A stretch of 64,000 nt of DNA, taken from Escherichia phage vB_EcoM_ULIM3. This document shows, piece after piece, positions 5,301 through 10,245 of the stretch (the first letter of the stretch is position 1; each line of letters starts with the position of its first letter). Position numbers and translations under genes: made by a program. The stretch is taken from the sequence record OQ850289. One strand, 5' to 3'. Under the pieces are notes generated by a model. It worked only from the letters and a program-made list of their open reading frames with translations. It ran no database searches and was not told where the DNA came from.

Positions 5301-5377
5301 CTCTGTTTAGCTCAGCTTGGTAGAGCGTTCCGTTTGGGGCGGTAAGGCCGGAGGTTCAAGTCCTCCAACAGAGACCA
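5301..5377 (+). tRNA. tRNA-Pro (TGG)
   Basis: acceptor ctctgtt/aacagag (C1-G72, disc A, CCA encoded); anticodon loop tttgggg; T-arm ggagg-ttcaagt-cctcc; one mismatch in anticodon stem. Confidence 0.6.
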
Positions 5378-5384
5378 AATTAAT

Positions 5385-5462
5385 GTTCCAGTAGACAAAA
5401 TGGTAAAGTCACCACTCTTTCAAAGTGGATATTTGAGGGTTCAAATCCCTTCTGGAACGCCA
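5385..5462 (+). tRNA. tRNA-Glu (TTC)
   Basis: acceptor gttccag/ctggaac; anticodon stem ccact/agtgg, loop ctttcaa; T-loop ttcaaat; CCA encoded. Confidence 0.7.
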
Positions 5463-5467
5463 GTTTT

Positions 5468-5544
5468 GACAGAAGACCAATTGCAGCAAACTTAATCTTA
5501 TTCATCTGAAGGTAAATCGGACAAAGAAGAGATTTGGTCTGGTC
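5468..5544 (+). ncRNA. stem-closed element A (CAGAAGACC...GGTCTGG family)
   Basis: 7-bp helix 5474-5480/5534-5540 (AGACCAA:TTGGTCT) closing a 53-nt AT-rich interior; fills the tRNA-sized spacer between two tRNAs. Confidence 0.4.
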
Positions 5545-5553
5545 ATTAAGAAT

Positions 5554-5630
5554 TGCGGGTATAGAGAAAGGGCGTCTCACATGTCTCATTAGCATGGTAT
5601 CGGCAGGTTCGACTCCTGCACCCGCCTCCA
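5554..5630 (+). tRNA. tRNA with CAT anticodon (Met or Ile2)
   Basis: anticodon stem catgt/gcatg, loop ctcatta; T-arm gcagg-ttcgact-cctgc; acceptor 6/7 paired; CCA encoded. Confidence 0.55.
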
Positions 5631-5634
5631 AATT

Positions 5635-5704
5635 TACAGAAGACCGTTTACAGCAAAATTGAATGAAATTTTTAGCGGAAAAAATTGAAAGATACGGTCT
5701 GGTA
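5635..5704 (+). ncRNA. stem-closed element B (CAGAAGACC...GGTCTGG family)
   Basis: 7-bp helix 5641-5647/5694-5700 (AGACCGT:ACGGTCT); first 28 nt identical to element D. Confidence 0.4.
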
Positions 5705-5715
5705 ATACTAAACAT

Positions 5716-5792
5716 GGTTAGGAAGCACATAAGGTATGTGCGGTCGCCTGTTAAGCGAATGGCACAGGGTTCGAATCCCTGACTAACCGCCA
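5716..5792 (+). tRNA. tRNA-Asn (GTT)
   Basis: acceptor ggttagg/actaacc; anticodon loop ctgttaa; T-arm caggg-ttcgaat-ccctg; CCA encoded. Confidence 0.65.
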
Positions 5793-5801
5793 AATTTAAA
5801 T

Positions 5802-5889
5802 GTGTCGTTATCCCGTAGATGGTAGCGGTGGGGACTGTAAATCCCTTGTCATTGAGACTCGGTAGGTTCGACTCCTACACGGCACACCA
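5802..5889 (+). tRNA. tRNA-Tyr (GTA), long variable arm
   Basis: acceptor gtgtcgt/acggcac; anticodon stem gggga/tccct, loop ctgtaaa; ~15-nt variable arm; T-arm gtagg-ttcgact-cctac. Confidence 0.7.
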
Positions 5890-5894
5890 ATAAA

Positions 5895-5971
5895 GGCTAT
5901 GTAGTTTAACTGGAGAAAATACTCCCCTGTCACGGGAGATGATGTGAGTTCAAGTCTCATCGTAGCCGCCA
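5895..5971 (+). tRNA. tRNA-Asp (GTC)
   Basis: acceptor ggctatg/cgtagcc; anticodon stem ctccc/gggag, loop ctgtcac; CCA encoded. Confidence 0.7.
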
Positions 5972-6056
5972 AATTATAATAAGTATTTCAAAATGATGTT
6001 TTGAGAGGGCTATTTAGCCCCTCCCTTAAAGGGTTCTTACGAGTATCCTTTAAAGG

Positions 6057-6134
6057 AGCAGAAGACCAAATTCAGCAAGTTACTTAAAATTTCAAGCCAA
6101 TTTAATTTTGAAAAATTTAAAACTTGGTCTGGCT
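6057..6134 (+). ncRNA. stem-closed element C (CAGAAGACC...GGTCTGG family)
   Basis: 7-bp helix 6063-6069/6124-6130 (AGACCAA:TTGGTCT); interior AT-rich hairpin. Confidence 0.4.
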
Positions 6135-6143
6135 CAACAAATT

Positions 6144-6278
6144 TACAGAAGACCGTTTACAGCAAAACTTAAACAATCTATTTCTCGGTAAAGAAAAGGC
6201 GAAGGTTCGATTCCTTCACTCGGCAGATGTCGAGTTGGTGTAATGGCAGCACTTAAGATGATAAACAACGGTCTGGTA
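6144..6278 (+). ncRNA. stem-closed element D with internal tRNA-like module
   Basis: 8-bp helix 6150-6157/6267-6274 (AGACCGTT:AACGGTCT); interior has T-arm-like gaagg-ttcgatt-ccttc (6201-6217) and D-loop-like agttggtgtaatgg (6231-6246) but no full cloverleaf. Confidence 0.4.
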
Positions 6279-8231: not shown

Positions 8232-8308
8232 GCAGGATTAGTTCAAATGGATAGAGCAACAGTCTACGAAGCTGTTAATAGGGGGTTCGAATCCCTTATC
8301 CTGCGCCA
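8232..8308 (+). tRNA. tRNA-Arg (ACG)
   Basis: acceptor gcaggat/atcctgc perfect; anticodon stem acagt/gctgt, loop ctacgaa; CCA encoded. Confidence 0.75.
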
Positions 8309-8327
8309 ATTTAAAGAGGCTATTTAG

Positions 8328-8885
8328 ATGAGATATTTGAAGTATGCTTCATGGATTTTCTTAGCTTTGTTAGAGCCATTTGCAGCAATCTTAGCAGTTA
8401 TCTTAGCACCTTTCGTAGTTCCATTCTACAGTGAGAAGAAAGGACATCTGCCTTTCGGGTTCAGATGGATGGAAACTTATGACAACCCAATTGATGGTGA
8501 TGAAGGTCACGTTAAAAGATGGGCTAATATTAGATGGATTGGTAAACTAGGTGTCTACATGCAAAGAGTCGGATGGCTCTGGAGAAACAAAGCTTATAAC
8601 TTCTCTTACCATGTATTAGGAAGAGATGTAAAAGATGTTACTAAGTGGAAAGGTAATATCAACGTAAGTTCTGACCCTGAAGATAATCAGACAGGTTATC
8701 TCCTAATGTGGAACAGTAATGCTTGGGGATTATTCGCTTTTATCCCATCAATTAAAATCTTTGGTAAACAATTCTACTGGAGAATTTATGTTGGATGGAA
8801 GCTAAAAAGTGTTGTCCCAGAAGAAAGAGCATTCTCAAGGGAAAGAGTTATGTTGGCATTCTTTATTCACCCACTAAGAAAGTAA
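8328..8885 (+). CDS. hypothetical membrane protein embedded in tRNA island
   Basis: 185 aa; N-terminal hydrophobic helix (IFLALLEPFAAILAVILAPFVV); Trp-rich; lies between two tRNAs. Confidence 0.5.
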   Translation: MRYLKYASWIFLALLEPFAAILAVILAPFVVPFYSEKKGHLPFGFRWMETYDNPIDGDEGHVKRWANIRWIGKLGVYMQRVGWLWRNKAYNFSYHVLGRDVKDVTKWKGNINVSSDPEDNQTGYLLMWNSNAWGLFAFIPSIKIFGKQFYWRIYVGWKLKSVVPEERAFSRERVMLAFFIHPLRK

Positions 8886-8893
8886 AGATTTAA

Positions 8894-8969
8894 AGGGGAT
8901 TAGTTTACAAGGTTAAAACCTCGGTCTTTGAAATCGAAGAAGTTGGTTCAATTCCAACATCCCCCGCCA
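8894..8969 (+). tRNA. tRNA-Gln (TTG)
   Basis: D-stem gttt/aaac; anticodon stem tcggt/atcga, loop ctttgaa; T-arm gttgg-ttcaatt-ccaac; A1-C72 mismatch. Confidence 0.6.
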
Positions 8970-8971
8970 AT

Positions 8972-9050
8972 GCTCCATTACTCCAATTGGCAGAGAGGCC
9001 AGACTTAAAATCTGTGTTATGTATCGGTTCGAATCCGATATGGAGTACCA
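8972..9050 (+). tRNA. tRNA with TAA anticodon (Leu-type), short variable arm
   Basis: acceptor gctccat/atggagt; anticodon loop cttaaaa; T-arm atcgg-ttcgaat-ccgat. Confidence 0.5.
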
Positions 9051-9055
9051 AATTT

Positions 9056-9131
9056 AGCGGTATAGCATAACTGGAAATGCAACAGTCTCTGAAGCTGTCC
9101 TATTAAGGTTCAAATCCTTATGCCGCTGCCA
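9056..9131 (+). tRNA. tRNA-Gln (CTG)
   Basis: acceptor agcggta/tgccgct; D-stem gcat/atgc; anticodon stem acagt/gctgt, loop ctctgaa; T-arm taagg-ttcaaat-cctta. Confidence 0.65.
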
Positions 9132-9162
9132 CTTCTAAGGGTTCTTACGAGAGTCCTTAAAT

Positions 9163-9238
9163 GTGGCCTTATCATAAATGGTAATGACCCATGCTGTGAA
9201 CATGGTCTATACGGGTTCAAATCCCGTAGGTCACCCCA
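9163..9238 (+). tRNA. tRNA-His (GTG)
   Basis: anticodon stem ccatg/catgg, loop ctgtgaa; T-arm acggg-ttcaaat-cccgt; CCA encoded. Confidence 0.75.
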
Positions 9239-9243
9239 ATTTA

Positions 9244-9318
9244 TAGTCCAAGTAGCTTATATGGTTAAAGCGCGTGTCTGAAAAACATGAGAAGAGGGTT
9301 CAAATCCCACTGGACTAC
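9244..9318 (+). tRNA. tRNA-Phe (GAA)
   Basis: acceptor tagtcca/tggacta; anticodon stem cgtgt/acatg, loop ctgaaaa; T-loop ttcaaat; CCA not fully encoded. Confidence 0.6.
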
Positions 9319-9336
9319 CAATTTCAAAGGTGCTTA

Positions 9337-10071
9337 ATGAAAGAGATGACAGAACAAGGTAAGGAGATTTTTAATCTCTTAAAAACCGGTAAAGGGTTCT
9401 CTAACCCACTTATTACTGGTGCAGCAGTTCTCGGTGGAACCGTAGCTGCTTCTACATCACTTGTAAGCTCTATTAGTTCTGTATCAGACCCTACAGTAAA
9501 AGATAAGCTTGTTGCTGCTGGACTTACAACAGTTCTGCTTAACAGCTTTACCACGAGTCTGAAAAGCACTACATCAACTACCAAAACACTGACAGATTAC
9601 GGTCAAAAGTCCATTGATGAGTTTTCATCACGTATGCAGGTAGCAAAAGGTTATTCTAATGTTATGGGTGCAGCAGGTGAACAAGTTGGCTGTACACCAT
9701 TTAGTGGTATTATGGGTGTTGCTACAGAGTATGGTCAAAAAGCTATTGATACGATTAACAGTGCACTAGACGGTGTTAATGATGTATTAAGTGATTTACA
9801 AGACGCTATTGACAAAGGTCTTGATACTATTTCTGATTTAGCTAACCAAGCTGTTAGTAAGATTAATGAAGGTATCTCGAAGATTACAGCTTATGCAGAT
9901 GAAGTTGTGCAGATGATTGAAGAAGAAGCTGCCCTTATTGCAGAGTACCTTAAAACGAATATCAATGGGTTCTTAGCAGGTATCTTACCAGACTGGTTTG
10001 ATGATGCTTGTAAAACTGGTGTAATTGACACTATTGCAACACCAGAAATGAAGAACACATTACAGAAATAA
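9337..10071 (+). CDS. hypothetical Ser/Thr-rich protein
   Basis: start moved from 9274 (which overlaps tRNA-Phe) to ATG 9337 with AAGGTG RBS; 244 aa. Confidence 0.5.
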   Translation: MKEMTEQGKEIFNLLKTGKGFSNPLITGAAVLGGTVAASTSLVSSISSVSDPTVKDKLVAAGLTTVLLNSFTTSLKSTTSTTKTLTDYGQKSIDEFSSRMQVAKGYSNVMGAAGEQVGCTPFSGIMGVATEYGQKAIDTINSALDGVNDVLSDLQDAIDKGLDTISDLANQAVSKINEGISKITAYADEVVQMIEEEAALIAEYLKTNINGFLAGILPDWFDDACKTGVIDTIATPEMKNTLQK

Positions 10072-10095
10072 TGGAAGATTAACCCTAAAAGGTAA

Positions 10096-10165
10096 GGGAG
10101 CAGTTTGCTAAACTGCCAGTAGCTGAGAAATCGGTGTACCAGTTCAAGTCTGGTATCTTCCTCCA
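10096..10165 (+). other. tRNA-like fragment / degenerate tRNA
   Basis: perfect T-arm accag-ttcaagt-ctggt (10138-10154) and encoded CCA (10163-10165) but only 5-bp acceptor pairing and no canonical D or anticodon arm. Confidence 0.4.
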
Positions 10166-10169
10166 ATTT

Positions 10170-10245
10170 GAATCCGTGACAGAAATGGCTATGTGCCTGT
10201 CTGCAAAACAGGTTTATAAGGGTTCGAGTCCCTTCGGATTCTCCA
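10170..10245 (+). tRNA. tRNA-Cys (GCA)
   Basis: acceptor gaatccg/cggattc; anticodon stem cctgt/acagg, loop ctgcaaa; T-arm aaggg-ttcgagt-ccctt; CCA encoded. Confidence 0.7.

What the first reader, a model, noticed from the sequence alone, without database searches (positions are those of the whole stretch)
5301..10245. Large tRNA island: 26 tRNA genes covering all 20 amino acids, with non-canonical members
By manual cloverleaf reading I find 26 plus-strand tRNAs whose anticodons cover every amino acid (Pro, Glu, Met/Ile2 x2, Asn, Tyr, Asp, Lys x2, Ile, Arg x2, Trp, Ser, Ala, Gly, Thr, Val, Gln x2, His, Phe, Cys, and three Leu-type anticodons TAG/CAA/TAA). Oddities: the three Leu-type tRNAs appear to have short (class I) variable arms, whereas bacterial tRNA-Leu is class II; tRNA-Trp (7127-7209) has ~7 extra nt between acceptor stem and D-stem; several have a G-U or mismatch at pair 1-72; most encode CCA. 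Ala has the G3-U70 identity pair, and Pro (C1-G72) and Trp (A1-U72) start as their E. coli counterparts do, which supports the reading.
Basis: partly seen in the sequence, partly recalled or inferred. Interest (0 to 1): 0.5.

Follow-up and report, generated by a model that had tools for sequence, protein, structure and literature searches.

The report
Phage tRNA array with hidden extras
This is the known transfer-RNA gene cluster of a Felix O1-like phage of E. coli/Salmonella, but it also holds an oddly built, unannotated tryptophan tRNA that completes the set for all 20 amino acids, three leucine tRNAs that lack the usual long arm, and four Y-RNA-like genes sitting beside a Ro60-like protein gene.

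Summary
The island is real. The window is a Felixounavirus, 95-98% identical to many sequenced phages, whose tRNA cluster was described in 2009-2010.

**Gene count.** ARAGORN plus-strand tRNAs at 5301-10245.

**Trp gene.**
- It is conserved, and its stems covary: 6 compensatory pairs, and 99% of pair positions across the sequences form standard pairs.
- It keeps anticodon CCA and G73.
- It carries an invariant 10-nt acceptor-to-D connector instead of 2 nt. A Yersinia phage has the same connector.
- With it there are 27 tRNA genes for 20 amino acids.

**Decoding set.** It has the layout of a minimal complete set: one tRNA per four-codon box. Only ATA and CGG, together 0.25% of phage codons, have no reader.

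**Leu tRNAs.** All three have 4-7 nt variable regions (class I-like). They keep A73 and the A14/A15/G18G19/U48 core that E. coli LeuRS recognises. The same type occurs in distant phages.

- ORF 3720-5135 has a Ro60/TROVE fold.
- Four Y-RNA-like genes lie among the first tRNAs. One is a YrlA-like tRNA mimic.
- The Ro60-like gene, Y-like RNAs and a tRNA array recur together in three distant phages.

No RNA expression, charging or binding was tested.

The parts
3720..5135 (+). Ro60-like (TROVE + vWA) protein gene, 471 aa, immediately upstream of the array
   Evidence: Pfam DUF2828+DUF7788. PHROG 850 'RNA-binding protein'. AF2 model pLDDT 85.9. The Foldseek top 9 PDB hits are all Ro60/TROVE at full length, E 5e-9 to 1e-6. 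MIDAS residues D279/S281/S283 are invariant.
5301..5377 (+). tRNA-Pro (TGG)
   Evidence: ARAGORN; Rfam 57.7 bits
5385..5462 (+). tRNA-Glu (TTC)
5462..5548 (+). Y-RNA-like element e1 (short form): CAGAAGACC..TGCAGCAA...GGTCTGG
   Evidence: repeat family D13/D14; fold; conserved in relatives; CM R1 35.9 bits, E 2.8e-6
5554..5630 (+). tRNA-Met (CAT), initiator-like acceptor and D stems (U1xC72, G2-C71, C3-G70, A11-U24). It lacks the three G-C pairs in the anticodon stem. It has U37 and a 3-nt connector.
   Evidence: ARAGORN; not found by RF00005 even at E<=10; comparison with E. coli metZ
5629..5708 (+). Y-RNA-like element e2 (short form)
   Evidence: CM R1 57.3 bits, E 1.6e-11
5716..5792 (+). 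tRNA-Asn (GTT)
5802..5889 (+). tRNA-Tyr (GTA), class II (15-nt variable region)
   Evidence: sub-threshold Rfam hit
5895..5971 (+). tRNA-Asp (GTC)
6052..6140 (+). Y-RNA-like element e3 (short form)
   Evidence: motif and fold; not reported separately by CM R1
6138..6282 (+). Y-RNA-like element e4, a YrlA-like tRNA mimic. It has a bulged closing helix, an ACAGCAA motif, a T arm (6200-6216), a closed 7-bp acceptor-like hairpin (6217-6234) and a D-arm-like hairpin.
   Evidence: RNAalifold consensus with 3 compensatory pairs in the acceptor-like hairpin. The CM finds homologs in three distant phages.
6426..6501 (+). tRNA-Lys (TTT)
6506..6582 (+). tRNA-Met (CAT), elongator-type (G1-C72); Ile2 identity not excluded
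6585..6659 (+). tRNA-Ile (GAT)
6907..6983 (+). tRNA-Arg (TCT)
7127..7209 (+). Non-canonical tRNA-Trp-like gene (anticodon CCA, A1-U72, G73, encoded CCA). The 10-nt connector GATGTTAAGA (7134-7143) replaces the usual 2 nt. The D stem is 3 bp. The anticodon loop is 9 nt, or 7 nt closed by C31xA39.
   Evidence: Not called by ARAGORN or Rfam. The MFE fold is a cloverleaf. 6 pairs change on both sides, and 99.3% of sequence-by-pair cells form standard pairs. A homolog in Yersinia phage P778 has the same connector.
7223..7312 (+). tRNA-Ser (TGA), class II; 3' end encoded as CC-T
7569..7646 (+). tRNA-Leu (TAG), class I-like (4-nt variable region), A73
7654..7729 (+). tRNA-Lys (CTT)
7736..7811 (+). 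tRNA-Ala (TGC), G3-U70
7818..7892 (+). tRNA-Gly (TCC)
7900..7975 (+). tRNA-Thr (TGT)
8073..8147 (+). tRNA-Val (TAC)
8149..8226 (+). tRNA-Leu (CAA), class I-like (5-nt variable region), A73
8232..8308 (+). tRNA-Arg (ACG)
8328..8885 (+). protein gene inside the array (185 aa, DUF7338)
8894..8969 (+). tRNA-Gln (TTG), A1xC72, G73
8972..9050 (+). tRNA-Leu (TAA), class I-like (7-nt variable region), G1-U72, A73
9056..9131 (+). tRNA-Gln (CTG)
9163..9238 (+). tRNA-His (GTG), C73 but T at position -1 (no encoded G-1)
9245..9320 (+). tRNA-Phe (GAA)
9337..10071 (+). protein gene inside the array (244 aa, DUF7217)
   Evidence: same gene order in Yersinia phage P778
10170..10245 (+). tRNA-Cys (GCA)

Best explanation
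Region 5301-10245 is the tRNA gene array of a Felixounavirus, a Felix O1/wV8-like lytic myovirus of E. coli and Salmonella. It encodes 27 tRNA genes: 26 that automated callers recognise, plus a structurally aberrant tRNA-Trp.

**Decoding logic.** The set has the layout of a minimal complete decoding set.
- Each four-codon box has one tRNA. Seven boxes have a U34 tRNA, and the Arg CGN box has A34.
- Each Y-ending two-codon set has one G34 tRNA.
- Each R-ending set has a U34 tRNA, with an extra C34 tRNA for Leu, Gln and Lys.
- There are two CAU tRNAs and one CCA tRNA.

**Inferred function.** The array is transcribed early as part of the unit that starts at the Ro60-like gene. It is processed by host RNase P and other host RNases and charged by host synthetases. 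It keeps translation of the AT-rich phage genes going when host tRNAs are limiting, degraded or cleaved by anticodon nucleases.

**Non-canonical members.** They keep what the host synthetases need.
- The Leu tRNAs keep A73 and the D/T-loop core.
- Trp keeps G73 and anticodon CCA. A1-U72 is present in this window, but it is G1-U72 in many relatives.
- They differ from host tRNAs elsewhere: no long Leu arm, a 10-nt Trp connector, and C32/A38 anticodon loops. Those differences could let them escape host factors that target host tRNAs.

**Embedded RNA-protein module.** A Ro60-like protein gene and four Y-RNA-like RNAs lie at the head of the array. One of the RNAs is a tRNA mimic. By analogy with bacterial Ro60/YrlA, they may act in quality control or turnover of structured RNA.

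**Shown here:** gene identities, structures, conservation, covariation, the protein fold and the synteny.
**Inferred:** expression, charging, resistance to nucleases and Ro60-like/Y-RNA binding.
For: **Identity.**
- 313 phage records match, 235 over at least 80% of the island. They are Felixounavirus and related Ounavirinae.
- Relatives annotate the same tRNAs in the same order.
- The Felix O1 and Sf14 papers describe the cluster.

**tRNAs.** ARAGORN finds 26, and Rfam finds 24 above threshold.

**Trp.**
- 8 distinct variants were compared. 19 pairs were counted, 99.3% of the sequence-by-pair cells form standard pairs, and 6 pairs change on both sides.
- 0 of 500 shuffles reach these values, and slid controls give 0.
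- The anticodon CCA and the connector are invariant.
- A homolog at the same position in Yersinia phage P778 has different stems but the same connector.
- A second allele at the same site, linked to an HNH endonuclease gene, also carries CCA and G73. ARAGORN calls it tRNA-Trp.

**Leu.**
- The variable regions are 4-7 nt.
- The D loop AATTGG(T/C)AGA, A73 and U48 match E. coli leuW/Z/X.
- tRNAscan isotype models rank Leu first for the Sf14 orthologs.
- E. coli Leu identity is A73 plus the U8-A14, A15-U48 and G18/G19 core (PMC2377443).
- Leu tRNAs of 77-78 nt also occur in three distant phages.

**Decoding.**
- The set is Watson-Crick cognate to 51% of 17,493 phage codons and reads 76% by standard wobble.
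- If U34 tRNAs read whole boxes, only ATA (0.19%) and CGG (0.06%) are left unread.

**Anticodon loops.** They differ from the host mainly at positions 32 and 38, as reported for phage tRNAs that escape tRNA-targeting defences (PMC10264068).

**Ro60/Y module.**
Against: - No expression, processing or charging data were available.
- Neither ARAGORN nor RF00005 accepts the Trp gene. A 10-nt connector has no precedent that I know of in a decoding tRNA.
- Some relatives carry a U-U mismatch in the Trp T stem, and the P778 copy has a bulge in its acceptor stem.
- tRNA-His lacks the G-1 that E. coli HisRS normally needs, so not every member need be efficiently charged.
- Superwobble by the U34 tRNAs is assumed, not shown.
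- The Sf14 study found that the codon usage of many cognate codons does not favour the phage, so codon matching alone explains little.
- The Y-like RNAs do not match Rfam YrlA and lack its GNCGAA motif.
Confidence: 0.72

Rival explanations
1. The Trp-like gene is a conserved tRNA mimic that is not used for decoding. It could be a decoy or sponge for a host factor that targets tRNA-Trp, a partner of the Ro60-like protein, or a regulatory RNA. The invariant 10-nt connector would be its specific binding site. On this reading the phage relies on host tRNA-Trp.
For: The connector sequence is invariant while all the stems change, which points to sequence-specific recognition. Callers reject the gene. 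The same locus encodes another tRNA mimic, e4. The anticodon loop is effectively 9 nt, because pair 31-39 is always a mismatch.
Against: The anticodon CCA, A37, G73 and the encoded CCA end are all kept. Both unrelated alleles at this site keep the same anticodon and discriminator. The rest of the set is exactly one tRNA short of complete without it.
Confidence: 0.22
2. The array exists only to compensate for codon-usage differences between an AT-rich phage and a GC-richer host. The odd structures are neutral drift.
For: The genome is about 39% GC. Most anticodons are U34 and match A-ending codons that the phage prefers, such as GCA, ACA, GTA, CCA, AGA and TTA.
Against: The set covers every amino acid, including Met, Trp and codons used less than in the host (TGC, AGC, CAG, CTA). 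The most used phage codons GGT, GCT, GTT, ACT and TCT have no Watson-Crick cognate tRNA. The structural oddities are conserved across distant phages, so they are not drift.
Confidence: 0.2
3. The Trp-like sequence is a decaying pseudogene or a chance cloverleaf.
For: It is not called by ARAGORN or Rfam. The folding z-score is only -1.56. Some relatives have a T-stem mismatch.
Against: There are compensatory changes in three stems, and 0 of 500 shuffles reach the observed values. The gene is conserved in a phage with only 53% protein identity next door.
Confidence: 0.05
4. The three class I-like 'Leu' tRNAs are not charged with leucine. They would be mischarged, or charged by another synthetase, so that CUA/UUR codons are read differently.
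For: They lack the class II arm that defines bacterial tRNA-Leu. For the Leu-TAG ortholog, the Ile2 (65.7) and Lys (63.4) isotype scores are close to Leu (67.4).
Against: A73, A14, A15-U48, G18G19 and the Leu-type D loop are conserved. The Leu isotype model scores highest for all three. From my own knowledge of Larkin et al. 2002 (not readable here), E. coli LeuRS does not require the variable arm.
Confidence: 0.06

Closest known systems
tRNA clusters of Felix O1, wV8 and Shigella phage Sf14 (Ounavirinae)
   Same: Same genes in the same order, at 90-98% DNA identity. Published counts are 22-26 tRNAs.
   Different: The publications report 22-26 tRNAs, and 19 amino acids for Sf14. They do not list the Trp gene of this allele, do not comment on the short-armed Leu tRNAs, and do not mention a Ro60-like gene or Y-like RNAs. 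The window also lacks the HNH endonuclease insertions that many relatives carry.
Large tRNA arrays of T5-like, KVP40-like and other big lytic phages
   Same: Tens of same-strand tRNA genes with short spacers, encoded CCA ends, and anticodon loops that differ from the host at positions 32 and 38 (PMC10264068).
   Different: Here the set is complete for 20 amino acids and laid out as one tRNA per codon box. It is physically joined to a Ro60-like/Y-RNA-like module.
Bacterial and phage Ro60 (Rsr) with YrlA/YrlB Y RNAs (Chen et al. 2014, PMC4201824; Thermus phage phiLo Ro60, PMC12135203)
   Same: A TROVE+vWA fold. RNAs encoded within 1.2 kb on the same strand. A bulged closing helix. One RNA has a T arm, a closed acceptor-like stem and a D arm in YrlA order. 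Shorter YrlB-like partners are present.
   Different: The protein is Pfam DUF2828/DUF7788, with no sequence-level hit to Ro60. The RNAs are not detected by Rfam YrlA. Their conserved motif is (C)AGAAG...ACAGCAA, not GNCGAA. They are interleaved with genuine tRNA genes.
Class I tRNA-Leu of animal mitochondria
   Same: Leu anticodons on a tRNA with a 4-5 nt variable region.
   Different: The phage genes keep a full bacterial-type D loop, T loop and A73. They presumably use the bacterial host LeuRS.
E. coli tRNA-Trp (trpT)
   Same: A1-U72, G73 and anticodon CCA. Most relatives of allele A have the identical anticodon loop CUCCAAA.
   Different: A 10-nt connector instead of 2 nt, a 3-bp D stem, a C31xA39 mismatch, and U2-A71 instead of G2-C71. 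The window's copy has U32 and C38.

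Membership tests
Felixounavirus tRNA array | DNA homology and conserved gene order with the Felix O1/wV8-type cluster | tested here: met
   95-98% identity over the whole 4.9 kb in more than 200 records; same tRNA order
Canonical tRNA (Rfam RF00005 / cloverleaf), the 26 called genes | Cloverleaf recognised by ARAGORN and by the covariance model above its gathering score | tested here: met
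   26/26 by ARAGORN and 24/26 by RF00005. Met 5554 and Tyr 5802 are below or absent in Rfam.
Canonical tRNA, the Trp candidate 7127-7209 | Four helices of the cloverleaf, maintained in evolution | tested here: met
   99.3% of cells paired, 6 pairs with changes on both sides, 0/500 shuffles; MFE fold is a cloverleaf
Canonical tRNA, the Trp candidate 7127-7209 | 2-nt connector (positions 8-9) between acceptor and D stems; detection by tRNA callers | tested here: not met
   10-nt connector GATGTTAAGA; no ARAGORN call under any setting; no RF00005 hit at E<=10
E. coli-type tRNA-Trp identity | G73, A1-U72 and anticodon C34 C35 A36 (identity set from my own knowledge of the literature) | tested here: met
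   All are present in the window copy. Position 1 is G (G1-U72) in many relatives. Charging itself was not tested.
Bacterial class II tRNA-Leu | Variable arm of more than 10 nt | tested here: not met
   4, 5 and 7 nt. The alignment with leuW/Z/X shows an 8-10 nt deletion.
Substrate of E. coli LeuRS | A73 plus the tertiary core U8-A14, A15-U48, G18-U55, G19-C56 (PMC2377443) | tested here: met
   All these nucleotides are present in the three genes. Aminoacylation cannot be tested here.
Bacterial initiator tRNA (Met 5554-5630) | Unpaired 1-72 and A11-U24 | tested here: met
   U1xC72; G2-C71, C3-G70 and G4-C69 as in metZ; D stem GAGA/TCTC gives A11-U24
Bacterial initiator tRNA (Met 5554-5630) | Three consecutive G-C pairs at the base of the anticodon stem; A73 | tested here: not met
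   Anticodon stem is CATGT/GCATG; discriminator is U; U37
tRNA-Ile2 (CAU read as AUA after lysidine modification) | TilS recognition and modification of C34 | not testable with these tools
   Indirect only: ATA is almost absent from phage genes (0.19%, RSCU 0.10). Isotype scores of the Sf14 orthologs do not favour Ile2.
Ro60 / TROVE proteins | HEAT-repeat ring plus vWA domain with a MIDAS motif | tested here: met
   Foldseek top 9 hits are Ro60 at full length (TM 0.48-0.67 normalised to the query, prob 1.00). DxSxS is invariant.
Ro60 / TROVE proteins | Sequence-level match to the TROVE family or to solved Ro60 structures | tested here: not met
   Pfam gives DUF2828/DUF7788 only; phmmer against PDB finds nothing
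YrlA-type Y RNA (Rfam RF02553) | Match to the YrlA covariance model and the GNCGAA motif | tested here: not met
   No hit on 6138-6282 at E<=10. The motif is CAGAAG...ACAGCAA instead.
YrlA-type Y RNA (architecture) | Encoded near and on the same strand as the Ro60 homolog; closing bulged helix; T arm, closed acceptor-like stem, D arm | tested here: met
   The same module sits beside DUF2828 genes in three distant phages, with CM E-values of 3e-13 to 1e-6. Binding was not tested.

The most novel reading that the evidence does not exclude
Felix O1-like phages and several unrelated large phages may carry one integrated RNA toolkit. It would consist of three parts.
- A divergent Ro60-like protein with its own class of Y RNAs, including a tRNA mimic.
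- A self-sufficient, minimal complete tRNA set.
- Members of that set remodelled to stay chargeable by host synthetases while escaping host tRNA-directed attack: Leu without its long arm, Trp with an invariant 10-nt connector, and an initiator-like Met with an altered anticodon arm.

On this reading the invariant Trp connector is a specific recognition or protection element. The Ro60-like/Y-RNA complex would manage processing or quality control of the array's transcripts, or would hijack host PNPase.
Probability: 0.25. Interest if true: 0.75.

Novelty: new variant of a known kind. Interest (0 to 1): 0.5.

Why it matters
The array itself is textbook material for this phage genus. Three things inside it are not in the annotations or in the papers I could search.

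1. **A decoding set that is complete only through a tRNA-Trp that standard callers cannot see.** Published tRNA counts and 'missing amino acid' statements for these widely used therapeutic and typing phages may therefore be wrong. tRNA callers may also under-report such variants elsewhere.

2. **Bacterial-type tRNA-Leu without the class II arm, conserved across distant phages.** This is a natural experiment on what LeuRS, RNase P and tRNA-targeting nucleases really need.

3. **A Ro60-like protein of the DUF2828 family with its own Y-RNA-like genes, repeatedly linked to phage tRNA arrays.** This would give DUF2828 a function. It would extend Ro60/Y RNA biology to common coliphages that are easy to manipulate. 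It would also tie that biology to tRNA metabolism, an open question for Y RNAs that mimic tRNA.

Tried and rejected
- **ARAGORN on the Trp gene.** Lowered thresholds and intron search did not call it.
- **Rfam at E<=10.** It gave no tRNA hit on the Trp gene or on Met 5554, and no YrlA hit on e4.
- **Permuted tRNA gene.** I considered e4 as a circularly permuted tRNA gene, with the 3' half before the 5' half. The Michonne-type variant even has G-CCA in the loop of its acceptor hairpin. I rejected this in favour of a YrlA-like mimic for three reasons. The acceptor is closed by a loop without CCA in most phages. There is no anticodon. The closing helix and the ACAGCAA motif are shared with the three short elements.
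- **tmRNA.** Rfam gave weak hits to tmRNA_permuted (6602-6785, 32.5 bits against a gathering score of 47) and tmRNA (6717-6906). I judged them noise. ARAGORN finds no tmRNA.
- **Ro60-like protein.** phmmer against PDB sequences found nothing. Full-text searches for DUF2828 with TROVE, and for Ro60 with phage tRNA clusters, found nothing relevant.
- **Trp connector.** I looked for a complementary partner in the window and in e1-e4 and found nothing convincing. The complementarity between the connector and the Trp trailer (AGTCTTA) is not conserved in L031 or P778. That trailer instead pairs with the tRNA-Ser trailer.
- **Literature on short-armed Leu.** A search for phage tRNA-Leu with a short variable arm found no description.
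- **tRNAscan-SE.** It could not be run here. I used the published isotype scores for the Sf14 orthologs instead.

Full report
**1. What the sequence holds**

ARAGORN finds 26 tRNA genes in the 64-kb window. All lie on the + strand between 5301 and 10245. Rfam RF00005 finds 24 of them above its gathering score.

RF00005 does not report it either, even at E<=10.

The same permissive scan also fails to report tRNA-Met 5554-5630. Tyr and Ser(TGA) appear only as weak hits.

**2. Where it comes from**

The 4.9-kb region matches 313 phage records, 235 of them over at least 80% of its length. Almost all are Felixounavirus or related Ounavirinae. The best is Escherichia phage MET-P1-301 at 97.8% identity.

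Relatives annotate the same tRNAs in the same order and do not annotate a Trp gene. The cluster has been described before:
- Felix O1: 22 tRNAs, two of them called pseudogenes
- wV8: 23 tRNAs

The island as such is therefore already known.

**3. Structural table**

- 26 of the 27 genes encode CCA. Ser(TGA) ends in CC-T.
- Pair 1-72 is G-U in Lys(TTT), Arg(TCT), Lys(CTT) and Leu(TAA). It is U x C in Met 5554 and A x C in Gln(TTG).
- Ala has G3-U70 and Pro has C1-G72.
- Tyr and both Ser tRNAs have long variable arms of 15-21 nt.
- The three Leu tRNAs have 4, 5 and 7 nt.
- 23 of the 26 called genes have C32.

**4. The Leu tRNAs**

I aligned the three genes with E. coli leuW, leuZ and leuX, fetched from NC_000913.3. 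The phage genes lack 8-10 nt of the variable arm. They keep the Leu-type D loop (AATTGGTAGA or AATTGGCAGA), A14, A15, G18G19, a U at the position of U48, the T loop TTCGAAT and A73.

These are the elements reported to define leucine identity in E. coli: A73 plus U8-A14, A15-U48, G18-U55 and G19-C56 (PMC2377443).

Published tRNAscan-SE isotype scores for the Sf14 orthologs put Leu first for all three, at 67.4, 49.1 and 60.2.

Leu tRNAs of 77-78 nt with the same D loop and A73 also occur in three distant phages:
- Yersinia phage vB_YenM_P778
- Vibrio phage phi-pp2
- an unnamed phage on a 143-kb contig

The class I-like Leu tRNA is therefore a conserved phage design and not a local defect. I found no paper that describes it.

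**5. The Trp gene**

The 83-nt sequence reads as follows:
- ATGGGAC, acceptor 5' strand
- GATGTTAAGA, connector
- CTC-TAAGGCAT-GAG, D arm
- C
- AACGG-CTTCCAACA-CCGTT, anticodon arm with anticodon CCA
- TCAAA
- GGGG-TTCAACT-CCTC, T arm
- C
- GTCCCAT, acceptor 3' strand
- G, discriminator
- CCA

Its minimum-free-energy fold is this cloverleaf.

I collected the homologous site from 30-odd related genomes in IMG/VR and GenBank. Eight distinct variants exist. The anticodon, A37, G73, the CCA end and the whole connector never vary.

The stems do vary, and in a compensatory way:
- D stem: CTC/GAG becomes CAC/GTG.
- Anticodon stem: AACGG/CCGTT becomes GTAAG/CTTAC.
- T-stem pair 50-64: G-C becomes U-A.

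Counted on the alignment, 99.3% of cells are paired and 6 of 19 pairs change on both sides. No shuffle out of 500 reaches these values, and slid partners give none.

Yersinia phage P778 has a neighbouring Ro60-like protein that is only 53% identical. It carries a homolog at the same position, between Arg(TCT) and Ser(TGA). That copy has the identical GATGTTAAGAC connector and different stems: GCG.. in the acceptor, GTAGG/CCTAC in the anticodon stem. Pair 31-39 is again mismatched. ARAGORN misses that copy too.

A second, very different allele occupies the same site in typing phage 8, SUSP1 and others. It is 71 nt long with a shortened D arm, acceptor AGGGGTG/CACCCCT, G73 and loop CTCCAAA, close to E. 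coli trpT. It is always followed by an HNH endonuclease gene. ARAGORN calls it tRNA-Trp in L003. I infer that this allele spread by endonuclease-driven gene conversion.

Two unrelated sequences at one site keep the same anticodon and discriminator. That argues that a Trp-accepting tRNA is what selection maintains there.

The window's copy has U32 and C38, where most relatives and E. coli have C32 and A38.

**6. Logic of the set**

I took 64 non-overlapping ORFs of the window, 17,493 codons in all.
- The 27 anticodons are Watson-Crick cognate to 51% of codons.
- They read 76% by standard wobble.
- The layout is one tRNA for each of the eight four-codon boxes. Seven have U34, and Arg has A34.
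- Each Y-ending pair has one G34 tRNA. Each R-ending pair has a U34 tRNA, with extra C34 tRNAs for Leu, Gln and Lys.
- There are two CAU tRNAs and one CCA tRNA.

If the U34 tRNAs read their whole boxes, as in organelles and mycoplasmas (an assumption), only ATA (0.19% of codons, RSCU 0.10) and CGG (0.06%) remain unread. The phage nearly avoids both.

The phage's most used codons (GGT, GCT, GTT, ACT, TCT) have no Watson-Crick cognate tRNA. The Sf14 study found several cognate codons used less by the phage than by the host.

Codon compensation alone therefore fits poorly. A self-sufficient replacement set fits better.

Anticodon-loop differences from the host sit mostly at positions 32 and 38. 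That is the pattern proposed to let phage tRNAs evade anticodon nucleases (PMC10264068). Phage tRNAs are known to overcome retron and other tRNA-directed defences (PMC11555353).

**7. Other odd members**

- **Met 5554-5630.** It has an initiator-like acceptor stem (U1xC72, then GCGGG as in metZ) and A11-U24. It lacks the three G-C pairs in the anticodon stem, has U73 and U37, and has a 3-nt connector.
- **Met 6506-6582.** It is elongator-like. An Ile2 identity cannot be tested, but it is not suggested by the near-absence of ATA codons.
- **tRNA-His.** It has C73 but T at position -1, where E. coli encodes G-1. The position is T or A in all 22 related copies.

**8. The array is not only tRNAs**

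Four repeats share the plan CAGAAGACC-NNN-T(A/T/G)CAGCAA ... GGTCTGG:
- e1, 5462-5548
- e2, 5629-5708
- e3, 6052-6140
- e4, 6138-6282

Each folds into a helix closed by TTAC/GTAA-type pairs with a 3-nt bulge.

e4 also contains an invariant T arm (GAAGG-TTCGATT-CCTTC), a closed 7-bp acceptor-like hairpin and a D-arm-like hairpin with GG in its loop. Across relatives the acceptor-like hairpin takes three different sequences that all pair: ACTCGGC/GTCGAGT, ACACG/CGTGT and ACCCTTC/GAAGGGT. Three of its pairs change on both sides.

This is the topology of YrlA, the bacterial Y RNA that mimics tRNA and binds Ro60 (PMC4201824).

**9. The gene just upstream**

ORF 3720-5135 is annotated 'vWFA protein' or 'hypothetical protein' in relatives.
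- Pfam: DUF2828 plus DUF7788.
- PHROGs: 'RNA-binding protein'.
- phmmer against PDB sequences: nothing.
- AlphaFold2 model from 40 homologs: mean pLDDT 85.9, pTM 0.86.
- Foldseek against PDB: the nine best matches are all Ro60/TROVE proteins, aligned over the full length at E 5e-9 to 1e-6 and TM up to 0.67. They are Thermus phage phiLo Ro60 (9KOP), Xenopus Ro60, human-type Ro60 complexes and Deinococcus Rsr. The next hits are isolated vWA domains.
- The MIDAS residues DxSxS are invariant in the family.

**10. The linkage is general**

DUF2828 homologs of 46-53% identity in three distant phages all lie on the same strand next to tRNA arrays of 14-26 genes. They are Yersinia phage P778, Vibrio phage phi-pp2 and the phage on the 143-kb contig.

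I built a covariance model from the Ounavirinae e4 alignment. It finds elements in all three:
- 143-kb contig: 64.4 and 60.2 bits (E 3e-13 and 3e-12)
- phi-pp2: 40.8 bits (E 1.8e-7)
- P778: 37.7 bits (E 1e-6)

The closing helices differ but still pair (AGAAGCU/AGCUUCU, AGAAGGU/ACCUUCU), and the ACAGCAA motif is kept.

Rfam's YrlA model does not detect these RNAs, and their motif differs from GNCGAA. I file them as YrlA-like in architecture and not as members of that family.

The earlier survey of bacterial and phage Y RNAs started from genomes annotated with a TROVE-domain protein. It would not have seen DUF2828 phages. I found no paper that links Ro60 to phage tRNA clusters.

**11. Limits**

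Nothing here shows transcription, processing, charging or protein-RNA binding.

The covariation in the Trp gene rests on three or four independent lineages. A 10-nt connector in a decoding tRNA would be unusual. A non-decoding role as a tRNA mimic remains a serious rival, which I put at about 0.2.

I could not run tRNAscan-SE.

**12. Verdict**

The features that appear to be undescribed are:
- the connector-expanded tRNA-Trp that completes the set
- the conserved class I-like tRNA-Leu design
- the Ro60-like/Y-RNA-like module embedded at the head of the array

Noticed in passing
window 3720-5135 (+): The gene just upstream of the array is annotated vWFA or hypothetical in relatives and is Pfam DUF2828+DUF7788. 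Its predicted fold is Ro60/TROVE+vWA, with the top 9 PDB fold matches all Ro60. Homologs in three distant phages also sit beside tRNA arrays.
   Followed up: yes
window 5462-5548, 5629-5708, 6052-6140, 6138-6282 (+): Four Y-RNA-like genes lie among the first tRNAs. They share a bulged closing helix and an ACAGCAA motif. The last one is a YrlA-like tRNA mimic with a T arm, a closed acceptor hairpin and a D arm. Rfam does not detect them. A model built here finds homologs next to DUF2828 genes in Yersinia, Vibrio and unnamed phages.
   Followed up: yes
window 9162-9238: tRNA-His has C73 but T at position -1, so it has no encoded G-1. E. coli encodes G-1, and its HisRS uses it as a major identity element. 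In 22 related copies the position is T (21 copies) or A (1 copy), never G.
   Followed up: partly
L003 734-1223; L004 ~700-1195; L002 2674-3319; L034 952 onward: HNH homing-endonuclease genes are present or absent at several junctions of the array in relatives: Met/Ile, Trp/Ser, and after Ser. The Trp/Ser insertion is always linked to a completely different, E. coli-like tRNA-Trp allele with a shortened D arm. The window has none of these insertions.
   Followed up: partly
window 6278-6421 and 7478-7567: Two long, near-perfect hairpins (22-bp and 26-nt arms) lie just upstream of tRNA-Lys and tRNA-Leu(TAG). They could be RNase III-type processing sites or further small RNAs. Leader and trailer of tRNA-Ser also pair (7209-7222 with 7311-7324).
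   Followed up: no
window 5154-5182, 5245-5274, 6675-6703: Near-consensus sigma-70 promoter-like sites, the third being TTGACA-17-TATAGT. Two lie just upstream of the first tRNA and one lies inside the array after tRNA-Ile. The overall count is not above that of shuffled sequence.
   Followed up: no
window 6602-6906: Sub-threshold Rfam hits to tmRNA_permuted (32.5 bits, gathering score 47) and tmRNA (16 bits) fall in a structured 250-nt spacer. ARAGORN finds no tmRNA. Probably noise, but the spacer's content is unexplained.
   Followed up: no
window, 64 ORFs (whole window): ATA (0.19% of codons, RSCU 0.10) and CGG (0.06%) are almost absent from the phage genes although the genome is AT-rich. 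They are exactly the two codons the 27-tRNA set cannot read.
   Followed up: partly
L001 1998-2053, against window 5792-5802: Relatives carry about 55 extra nt between tRNA-Asn and tRNA-Tyr that the window lacks. The nature of this insert is unknown.
   Followed up: no
L042 11150-11270: In Yersinia phage P778, the spacer before the Trp homolog contains another uncalled tRNA-like stretch with a GTAGGTTCGAATCCTGC T arm.
   Followed up: no
window 7134-7144: The Trp connector GATGTTAAGAC is invariant across all relatives, including P778. It has no complementary partner in the window, and its role is unexplained.
   Followed up: partly
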